A DNA stretch of 64,000 bases from an uncultured Nitrososphaerales archaeon (lineage in GTDB: Archaea > Thermoproteota > Nitrososphaeria > Nitrososphaerales > Nitrososphaeraceae), in contig CAVOHZ010000003.1 of assembly GCA_963695855.1 (NCBI GenBank), positions 160,001 to 224,000 on the forward strand, given 5' to 3'. Below the pieces are notes generated by a model, which saw only the letters and a list, made by a program, of their open reading frames with translations, did no database searches and was not told the DNA's origin. The position numbers and the translations under genes were made by a program. Shown piece by piece: positions 29,508-30,821 of this stretch. Position 1 is the stretch's first letter; each line of letters begins with the position of its first letter.

Positions 29508-29559
29508 TTTTAGTTCACTAATCTTTTTATATCAAACATAAACTTTGATTTATTCGTTT

Positions 29560-30167
29560 ATGTATAATACGACATCCGGCACAAATCACAATAACACGGA
29601 TAATGAAAATGAATTAAGTTTTAGTGTAGATGCACGAATAGATAATAAAAATACAATAATAATAGATTCTATTAAACAACAGGATCAGTTAAGAAATAAA
29701 GGGTTTGGAGAAAAAATAAAAGAAAAATTTATTATTGAAGCGTATGAAGCTCTTTTTCTTTTATATAACAAAAGATTAGTTTTAAAAAAAAAAAGACAAA
29801 ATTAGATTTTTCACAACTTTCTGAAATGTTATTGAAGGATGACATTTCAATATTTACCAAATTTCTCATATATAGAGATCTAAGAAGTCGAGGATACGTG
29901 GCGAAAGAAGGATTCGGATTTGGTTTAGATTTTCGTGTTTATGATAGAGGAGAATATCTAAAGAAACCTGCTAAATACGTAGTTTTTGGAATTAATGAAG
30001 GATTGAATATTCAGAGTAGCCATTTATATGAGAATATTAATTCCATTGAGAAAATGGGAAAAGAAGGAATAATTGCTGTAATTGAGAGAAGAGGAGAAAT
30101 AATCTATTATAAGATAAATAGAAAAAAATTTGAAACTAATAACAGATCGATTTCACTTTCTCAATAA
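29560..30167 (+). pseudogene. endA: tRNA splicing endonuclease subunit (probably the structural one), frameshifted at an A11 run
   Basis: GFGE..YEALFL in the first frame; YRDLRSRGY..GFGFGLDFRVY in the -1 frame after A11 (29784-29794). No catalytic His is evident. Confidence 0.8.
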
Positions 30168-30234
30168 TAAAAAAAAGTGCAACTAGCAGATGTAAAAATA
30201 ATAAAATTAAGAAAATAGAGATATAGATGTATTT

Positions 30235-30242
30235 TTTATATA
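30235..30242 (+). promoter_or_regulatory. Candidate TATA box for the C/D sRNA
   Basis: TTTATATA about 23-30 nt upstream of the predicted sRNA 5' stem. Confidence 0.45.
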
Positions 30243-30264: not shown

Positions 30265-30354
30265 TGTGGGATAATGATGATCACGATAGTCCCCCTATTA
30301 TATGGGATTATGCCCTGTAAAATGAAGAGAGGTACCGGACTACTGAGTTCCATA
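30265..30354 (+). ncRNA. Box C/D sRNA candidate, convergent with tRNA-Glu
   Basis: C box ATGATGA 30274-30280, C' ATGAAGA 30322-30328, D box CTGA 30343-30346 and an 8-bp terminal stem with G-U pairs. Guide ACCGGACTA is complementary to the tRNA-Glu D-loop. Confidence 0.7.
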
Positions 30355-30357
30355 AAA

Positions 30358-30433
30358 TGCTCCGACCGGGATTTGAACCCGGGATCGTCGCCTTGAGAGG
30401 GCGAAATGCTTAACCGGACTACACCATCGGAGC
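30358..30433 (-). tRNA. tRNA-Glu(CTC)
   Basis: GCTCCGA/TCGGAGC acceptor, TCGCC-CTCTCAA-GGCGA anticodon arm, T-loop TTCAAAT. Confidence 0.95.
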
Positions 30434-30578: not shown

Positions 30579-30821
30579 TTAAACAGTTATAACAGGGGCT
30601 TCTAGCGGTTCAACGGTTTTTTTGGTTTTAGCACGTAACTTGGCTTTATATTTTAGATTACGTGGTTTAGTTCTCAATCGATAACCACAACATGGGCACC
30701 ACAATCCATCCCATTTTATGAAGATTTCACAAATTTGGCAGCGTTTTTGTCCGCTGGCATACCTTCCAGAACCTACTGGTTTCTGAGCTTTATGTCTAAC
30801 GCAAATACCTTTACAAGTCAT
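30579..30821 (-). CDS. Small basic Cys-rich zinc-ribbon protein of AOA type
   Basis: CKGIC..GQKRCQICE..CPCCGYRLRTKPR. Confidence 0.85.
   Translation of the reverse strand: MTCKGICVRHKAQKPVGSGRYASGQKRCQICEIFIKWDGLWCPCCGYRLRTKPRNLKYKAKLRAKTKKTVEPLEAPVITV

What the first reader, a model, noticed from the sequence alone, without database searches (positions are those of the whole stretch)
30265..30433. C/D sRNA facing tRNA-Glu, with a guide complementary to that tRNA
Seen: between endA and tRNA-Glu lies a TATA-preceded C/D-like RNA (C 30274-30280, C' 30322-30328, D 30343-30346, 8-bp terminal stem). It ends 3 nt from the 3' end of the convergent tRNA-Glu. The 10-mer ACCGGACTAC at 30334-30343 recurs exactly at 30413-30422, so the D guide pairs 9 bp with tRNA positions 13-20. 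The C-to-C' spacer holds a hairpin (ATAGTCCC/GGGATTAT) and has no clean D'; its TAGTCC could alternatively sequester the guide's GGACTA. Established: the +5 rule would target C17. Inference: a guide next to its own tRNA target, beside a splicing endonuclease gene, perhaps derived from the tRNA and possibly conformationally gated.
Basis: partly seen in the sequence, partly recalled or inferred. Interest (0 to 1): 0.75.

Follow-up and report, generated by a model that had tools for sequence, protein, structure and literature searches.

The report
Double guide RNA for tRNA-Asp
A small RNA gene kept throughout one archaeal family is a box C/D guide whose two arms match two sites of the aspartate tRNA, one of them completed only by removal of an intron, so it likely methylates that tRNA rather than just the glutamate tRNA it sits beside.

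Summary
The C/D RNA is real: single-copy, found in 142 of 150 family genomes and 0 of 112 from other families of the order, with covarying stems. The D guide fits the same tRNA-Asp (+5 = C17) across the junction of a 15/16 intron seen in all 76 family genes examined. Shuffled guides hit one RNA in this order in 1 of 1500 trials. tRNA-Asp fits the D guide in 52 of 55 genomes, the neighbouring tRNA-Glu in 43; tRNA-Glu is not within 80 nt in 37 of 109. The D guide also fits both tRNA-Glu, tRNA-Ala(GGC) and one 23S site. No methylation or transcript was shown. This is a new member of a known, rare kind (Pyrobaculum sR61).

The parts
30232..30242 (+). T/A-rich TATA-like box (putative own promoter)
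   Evidence: sequence; similar motif 33-52 nt before box C in 88 of 109 homologues (no control)
30265..30354 (+). box C/D guide sRNA, about 90 nt (ends inferred from the terminal stem)
30265..30272 (+). terminal stem, 5' arm (pairs with 30347-30354)
   Evidence: 7 of 8 pairs with two-sided changes, 93% of cells paired
30274..30280 (+). box C (ATGATGA)
30281..30293 (+). D' guide; core 30285-30292 pairs with tRNA-Asp(GUC) G29-C36; +5 base 30289 faces C32
30294..30297 (+). box D' (CCTA; CCGA/TTGA in 3 of 109 homologues)
30298..30320 (+). variable covarying hairpin = canonical stem of the C'/D' kink-turn, followed by a 3-nt bulge
   Evidence: 5 of 5 tested pairs covary; first two pairs formed in 90 of 109
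30322..30328 (+). box C' (ATGAAGA)
   Evidence: 98 of 109 identical
30329..30342 (+). D guide; core 30334-30341 pairs with tRNA positions 14-20; +5 base 30338 faces C17 (spliced tRNA-Asp; also tRNA-Glu x2, tRNA-Ala(GGC), 23S position 883)
30343..30346 (+). box D (CTGA)
   Evidence: CTGA 49, CCGA 43, CAGA 15, CCAA 2 of 109
30347..30354 (+). terminal stem, 3' arm
30358..30433 (-). tRNA-Glu(CTC), convergent neighbour; possible secondary substrate (C17 = window 30417). The main predicted substrate, tRNA-Asp(GTC), lies outside the window at G000 C8:105-1 minus (intron 90-51), cut by the contig end
29545..30167 (+). endA homologue, likely the non-catalytic (beta) subunit; reading frame broken at an A11 run near 29785-29795

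Best explanation
This is a family-wide box C/D guide RNA whose two guides pair with the same molecule, spliced tRNA-Asp(GUC), and it likely directs fibrillarin to 2'-O-methylate C32 (D' guide) and C17 (D guide). Shown: boxes, stems, conservation, both complementarities, and the 15/16 intron in the target gene. Inferred: L7Ae binds a terminal C/D kink-turn and an internal C'/D' kink-turn capped by a hairpin; Nop5-fibrillarin load; the D' guide opens the anticodon arm (G29-C36) and the D guide the D-loop (A14-U20), the D site lying 5' of the D' site as for a double guide. In this genome the D site is complete only after the intron is removed, so C17 methylation would follow splicing. The D guide probably also acts on other tRNAs with the same D-loop, including the neighbouring tRNA-Glu. 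C32 is the better-supported half: in one genus the D guide decays while the D' guide is a perfect 10-bp match.
For: Energy scan of this genome's rRNAs, tRNAs, SRP and RNase P RNA puts tRNA-Asp first for the D' segment (-23.5 vs -17.9 kcal/mol next). That the D guide would fit the same tRNA once an intron is removed was noted before the 5' exon was read (note, sequence). Target words are invariant in 75 of 75 parsed tRNA-Asp genes. Guide variants keep pairing: position 7 is U (73) or C (36), both pair with G34; position 8 is A (101) or G (8), both pair with U35; position 1, which need not pair (PMC7229835, passages), varies C/A/G. Duplex from position 2 is 7 bp or more in 68 of 69 genomes for C32 and 66 of 69 for C17. 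Shuffled guide pairs hit one RNA in the right order within 100 nt in 1 of 1500 trials. Five genus-g19 genomes with both sequences have a 10-bp Watson-Crick D' duplex. Fibrillarin, Nop5 and an L7Ae-family gene are present. No TrmJ-like gene in this genome and in 30 of 38 family genomes. Cm at 32 is usual and a probable 2'-O-methyl at 17 was seen in Sulfolobus acidocaldarius (PMC7668247, passages).
Against: No transcript or methylation shown. Duplexes are short (8 bp from position 2 in this genome, one G-U in the D' duplex); a shuffled D' guide alone finds such a site somewhere in 614 of 1500 trials. No two-sided guide/target covariation exists, because the target is invariant. D' is degenerate (U for the G of the sheared pair in 103 of 109). 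The D guide fits 4 of 39 tRNA entries and one 23S site invariant in 30 of 30 genomes, so sharing a tRNA with the D' guide has about a 1 in 10 chance given a D-loop guide. The parser required the central three bases of each guide (2 of 111 loci unparsed), so invariance there is partly built in. In 26 of 69 genomes the unspliced precursor also offers 7 bp or more. TrmJ-like genes coexist with the RNA in 7 family genomes, and family f13 lacks both (0 of 39). Several predicted guide-directed tRNA methylations in Pyrococcus were not detected by mass spectrometry (PMC7668247, passages). Genomes are kin, not independent samples.
Confidence: 0.7

Rival explanations
1. Split targets: the D' guide methylates tRNA-Asp C32, but the selected target of the D guide is 23S rRNA C883 (about E. 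coli C796; numbering recalled, not from a call).
For: 10 bp (1 G-U) in this genome; site invariant in 30 of 30 family 23S genes; rRNA is the commonest target class (PMC7994747, passages).
Against: Guide position 10 varies over all four bases, so only 8-9 bp are kept, as for tRNAs; the D' guide has no 8-bp site with at most one G-U in 23S; the D guide decays in genus g19 while the 23S site does not change.
Confidence: 0.12
2. One reading: a guide kept beside, and acting mainly on, its own tRNA-Glu(CUC) at C17, perhaps derived from it.
For: 9 bp Watson-Crick here; tRNA-Glu within 80 nt in 71 of 109 loci; in some lineages the duplex with tRNA-Glu extends to 10-11 bp (11 of 75).
Against: Duplex under 7 bp or no pair at +5 in 17 of 75 genomes; 43 of 55 vs 52 of 55 for tRNA-Asp; no tRNA-Glu within 300 nt or more in 28 of 109; leaves the equally conserved D' guide unexplained.
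Confidence: 0.08
3. The RNA is a two-kink-turn structural or chaperone RNA in which the two guide segments pair with each other, or which holds tRNA-Asp unfolded without methylating it.
For: The 5-bp AGUCC/GGACU helix is formed in 106-109 of 109 per pair; in 7 g19 genomes it gains a sixth pair as the D guide decays (probably one event); it is part of the predicted fold; D' is degenerate.
Against: No covariation in the core; the flanking pair fails in 31 of 109 while the same base pairs with tRNA-Asp in 109 of 109; the helix (-8.1 kcal/mol) is weaker than either tRNA duplex (-15.7, -14.5); the +5 positions fall on C32 and C17, known methylation sites.
Confidence: 0.08

Closest known systems
Pyrobaculum sR61 (D' to C13 of tRNA-Tyr/Phe, D to C32 of tRNA-Phe) and sR46 (U12, U34); Lui et al. 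2018, PMC6009581, passages and supplement part 9 / Table S4 row
   Same: One C/D sRNA predicted to place two methyls on one tRNA, one in the D arm and one in the anticodon loop; one guide also fits several tRNAs.
   Different: Different target (Asp, C17 + C32), guides in the opposite order, D site crosses a non-canonical intron junction, hairpin-capped C'/D', kept across a whole family. Sequence homology to sR61 was not tested.
Euryarchaeal tRNA-Trp intron guide (sR50; Cm34, Um39), as reviewed in PMC7994747 and PMC11408192 (passages)
   Same: Double guide on one intron-containing tRNA, tied to splicing.
   Different: There the guide is the intron; here it is a free-standing gene and the intron interrupts the target site.
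Archaeal TrmJ (protein-only Cm32 enzyme; PMC4105751, passages)
   Same: Same predicted product, Cm32.
   Different: RNA-guided and specific for one tRNA; TrmJ-like genes were not found in 30 of 38 family genomes but coexist with the RNA in 7.
Rfam archaeal C/D families
   Same: Box layout; weak hit to sR1 (9.8 bits vs gathering 45, E 3.7).
   Different: No Rfam 15 family reaches its cut-off.

Membership tests
archaeal box C/D methylation guide sRNA | terminal box C (RUGAUGA) and box D (CUGA) closing a kink-turn on a terminal stem | tested here: met
archaeal box C/D methylation guide sRNA | internal D' and C' boxes | tested here: met
   C' ATGAAGA 98 of 109; D' degenerate CCTA 103 of 109 with canonical-type variants in 3; 3-nt bulge geometry with first two stem pairs in 90 of 109
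archaeal box C/D methylation guide sRNA | spacers of about 12 nt | tested here: met
   13 nt in 98 of 109 and 12-16 nt in 108 of 109, slightly longer than typical
archaeal box C/D methylation guide sRNA | guide-target duplex of 8-10 bp with a Watson-Crick pair at +5 | tested here: met
   8 bp or more from position 2 in 55 of 69 (C32) and 62 of 69 (C17); the D' duplex here misses the strict 9-Watson-Crick rule of PMC4644070 but meets its relaxed double-guide rule
archaeal box C/D methylation guide sRNA | fibrillarin, Nop5 and L7Ae encoded | tested here: met
archaeal box C/D methylation guide sRNA | expressed as a discrete small RNA | tested here: inconclusive
   metatranscriptome contigs overlap the locus but cannot show ends or strand
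archaeal box C/D methylation guide sRNA | L7Ae binding and guide-dependent 2'-O-methylation | not testable with these tools
   needs pull-down, reconstitution or RiboMeth-seq
described Rfam C/D family | score above a family's gathering threshold | tested here: not met

The most novel reading that the evidence does not exclude
A splicing-coupled quality step: the RNP needs both guides on one tRNA-Asp, so it engages only tRNA whose D-loop intron has been removed; the two guides rest paired with each other until that substrate arrives; the gene is kept downstream of the splicing-endonuclease subunit for co-regulation; and it took over Cm32 formation on tRNA-Asp where TrmJ was lost.
Probability: 0.15. 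Interest if true: 0.75.

Novelty: new member of a known kind. Interest (0 to 1): 0.46.

Why it matters
It gives a precise, testable prediction (Cm32 and Cm17 on tRNA-Asp) for a lineage with no described C/D guide in Rfam 15 or in the papers my searches returned. It is a rare double guide on one tRNA, conserved across 18 of 18 genera, whereas guide targets in Pyrobaculum are reported to be rarely kept beyond the genus. One guide reads across a non-canonical intron junction, which would order methylation after splicing, and the loss of TrmJ-like genes in most family members makes RNA-for-protein replacement testable. It also shows that guide-target scans miss sites when tRNA genes with D-loop introns are unannotated: ARAGORN missed this tRNA-Asp.

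Tried and rejected
23S 2560-2572 (13 bp, 3 G-U): needs a 5' extension present in 1 of 109. SRP RNA 5' end as D' target: the matching word is seen only in this genome and its closest relatives among 70 SRP loci. 23S 1067 and 1283-1294 as D' targets: 8 bp or a central mismatch, no covariation. tRNA-Pro(GGG) 5' end as D' target: mismatched at guide position 7 in 5 of 5 relatives. D' placed at AUUA (target G29): those four bases vary, the variable base would fall at position 4, and the spacer would be 16-17 nt; disfavoured, not excluded. Bulge-helix-bulge within the sRNA or an H/ACA fold: considered by eye, no consistent motif. Homologues outside the family: 0 of 112 by covariance model; relaxed search of 5 genomes and a pattern search of 200 genomes gave hits that lacked the box layout on inspection; that pattern demanded a canonical D' and did not recover the family RNA itself, so it is a weak test, and a homologue with changed guides could be missed. 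Metatranscriptome contigs: 4 runs on the sRNA locus and 4 on tRNA-Asp showed neither RNA ends nor a spliced joint; no weight either way. Whole-RNA folding z-score -1.0, uninformative for kink-turn RNAs. Sigma-70 promoter scan not applicable. Literature searches (listings only unless cited) returned no description of this RNA; the library omits most subscription papers, and tRNA/snoRNA web databases were not available. Earlier-findings look-ups gave nothing relevant.

Full report
Observation. The boxes, terminal stem, 3-nt gap to tRNA-Glu(CTC) and the repeated 10-mer are at the stated coordinates. The D guide pairs 9 bp with tRNA-Glu positions 13-20 and +5 is C17. The upstream gene is an endA homologue. 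The lineage is not named by any search; from the archaeal rRNA and tRNA matches and from recall I take it to be an ammonia-oxidising archaeon of the Nitrososphaeraceae type.

The RNA is real and family-wide. A covariance model from 52 homologues (52 chosen from 66 distinct) finds one copy in 142 of 150 family genomes, 18 of 18 genera (the tally includes unpublished G111 and G130), and in 36 of 38 family genomes but 0 of 112 genomes from 13 other families of the order. The terminal stem has two-sided changes in 7 of 8 pairs and an inner hairpin in 5 of 5. No Rfam 15 family reaches its cut-off.

Corrected anatomy. Among 109 parsed homologues (of 111 loci) a second conserved segment follows box C. 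Its last four bases are CCTA in 103, CCGA in 2, and TTGA, CTTA, CCAA, CATA once each. They lie 13 nt after box C in 98 of 109, and the next two bases pair with the bases before a 3-nt bulge at C' in 90 of 109. I read this as a degenerate D' box at 30294-30297 forming a hairpin-capped kink-turn with C'. The base just before it varies (C 89, A 17, G 3), as expected for guide position 1, which does not bind substrate (PMC7229835, passages).

Targets. The D guide core fits five places in this genome: tRNA-Glu(CUC), tRNA-Glu(UUC), tRNA-Ala(GGC), 23S position 883 and spliced tRNA-Asp. The D' segment had no match among ARAGORN's tRNAs, because tRNA-Asp(GUC) was missed; Rfam showed a partial tRNA at the start of contig C8, and it was the best partner in an energy scan. 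The gene (C8:105-1, minus) has a 40-nt intron between G15 and U16. With D' as above, +5 is C32. Joining the exons completes the D-guide site, with +5 at C17. All 76 family tRNA-Asp genes examined have this intron (75 parsed, 23-42 nt, central 4-bp helix with 4 pairs in 44 and 3 pairs in 31; the 76th by eye), and both target words are invariant in the 75. The intron boundaries are inferred from sequence and bulge-helix-bulge geometry; no spliced read was found.

Tests. Free guide positions change only in ways that keep pairing with tRNA-Asp: position 7 U/C against G34 (109 of 109), position 8 A/G against U35 (109 of 109); position 9 pairs in 89. The duplex from position 2 is at least 7 bp in 68 of 69 genomes for C32 and 66 of 69 for C17. 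For the neighbouring tRNA-Glu it is 58 of 75, with no Watson-Crick pair at +5 in 8; in 55 genomes with both, 52 fit Asp and 43 fit Glu. tRNA-Glu is within 80 nt in 71 of 109 loci, further in 9, unseen within 300 nt or more in 28, and 1 flank was too short. In genus g19 the D' guide is a 10-bp Watson-Crick match to G29-C38 while the D guide drops to 6-8 bp with wobbles. Shuffled guides: D' alone finds a site in 614 of 1500 trials, D alone in 141, both on one RNA in the right order in 1. Caveats: the parser fixed three central bases per guide; kin are not independent; with 4 of 39 tRNA entries carrying the D site, sharing a tRNA has about a 1 in 10 chance given a D-loop guide.

Self-complementarity. 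tRNA-Asp contains both complementary words, so this follows from the double targeting. The variable pair tracks the tRNA (109 of 109) better than the other guide (78 of 109), and the helix is weaker (-8.1 kcal/mol) than either tRNA duplex (-15.7, -14.5). A resting closed state is possible but unshown; its extension by one pair in 7 g19 genomes leans slightly its way.

Splicing link. Before splicing the D guide reaches 7 bp or more in 26 of 69 genomes, after splicing in 66 of 69; here 6 vs 9 bp. The endA homologue lies upstream on the same strand in 48 of 49 loci with 1450 nt or more of flank, though at 66 to about 1300 nt and often with sequence between. It lacks the His and Lys seen in a paralogue at C10:651310, so it is likely the beta subunit (triad and the (alpha-beta)2 type from PMC5829648, passages). 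Synteny alone does not show a functional link. The intron also occurs in 4 of 6 outgroup tRNA-Asp genes, so it is older than the detectable RNA; 5 of those 6 have a different anticodon stem, and the sixth has the same stem with no detected RNA.

Machinery. Fibrillarin, Nop5 and an L7Ae-family gene are present. TrmJ-like genes (TIGR00050; most hits below the curated cut-off) were not found in this genome, were found in 8 of 38 family genomes, 71 of 73 genomes of twelve other families, and 0 of 39 of family f13. Replacement of TrmJ on tRNA-Asp is plausible but not required: 7 of the 8 carry the RNA too, and f13 has neither.

Comparison. Lui et al. (PMC6009581; passages and supplement) call double guides on one tRNA rare and list sR61 (C13 and C32) and sR46; single guides often fit many tRNAs; their figure S8 lists no position-17 target. 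Wolff et al. (PMC7668247, passages) found a probable 2'-O-methyl at 17 in S. acidocaldarius and warn that several predicted guide targets were not detected. sRNA genes next to tRNA genes are known (PMC7994747, passages). Eight paper searches returned no description of this RNA.

Verdict. A new member of the archaeal C/D guide class, most likely a double guide for tRNA-Asp C32 and C17 (0.7), with tRNA-Glu at most one of several D-guide substrates. Interest 0.46; the coupled splicing-checkpoint reading has probability about 0.15.

Noticed in passing
window 29785-29795 (endA homologue 29545-30167): The gene is out of frame at an A-run in 9 of 19 genus genomes examined (A11 in 6, A10 in 1, A9 in 2) and in frame with A12 in one; the other 9 are intact with short runs. 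Recurrence suggests transcriptional slippage or frameshifting in a likely essential gene, though homopolymer assembly error is not excluded.
   Followed up: partly
G000 C8:105-1 minus (L263): tRNA-Asp(GTC) with a 15/16 intron, cut by the contig end and missed by ARAGORN.
   Followed up: yes
G000 C3:92641-92736 (L393): ARAGORN's 'tRNA-Arg(ccg)' looks like tRNA-Glu(TTC) with a 20-nt D-loop intron, probably also at 15/16; the intron ends so that the D-guide site exists before and after splicing.
   Followed up: partly
L068, L074-L076, L087, L088, L139: tRNA-Glu(CTC) carries a T-loop intron in genus g25 and in G082, unlike this genome.
   Followed up: no
G000 C2, C3, C4, C8, C10 (e.g. C2:122357, C8:271060): A repeated element around a core TCACCTTTAGGGGGGCGATGAC occurs at more than ten places; possibly an insertion-sequence end or MITE.
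   Followed up: no
window about 30640-30790: Metatranscriptome contigs of related organisms are much deeper over the small 80-aa gene (30579-30821 minus, cysteine pairs, no Pfam or NCBIfam hit) than over its flanks; contig depth is a poor measure.
   Followed up: no
L191 1819-1846 (G000 C8, after the SRP RNA gene): Short tandem repeat of an 11-nt unit directly after the SRP RNA 3' end, with a different copy number in the closest relatives.
   Followed up: no
L170, L168, L173, L177 (genus g30): A second hairpin with a conserved TAGGA..TCCT.CCTATGCT motif follows the sRNA where tRNA-Glu has moved away.
   Followed up: no
order-wide: TrmJ-like genes not found in 0 of 39 genomes of family f13 and in most of the window's family, but present in nearly all others.
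   Followed up: partly
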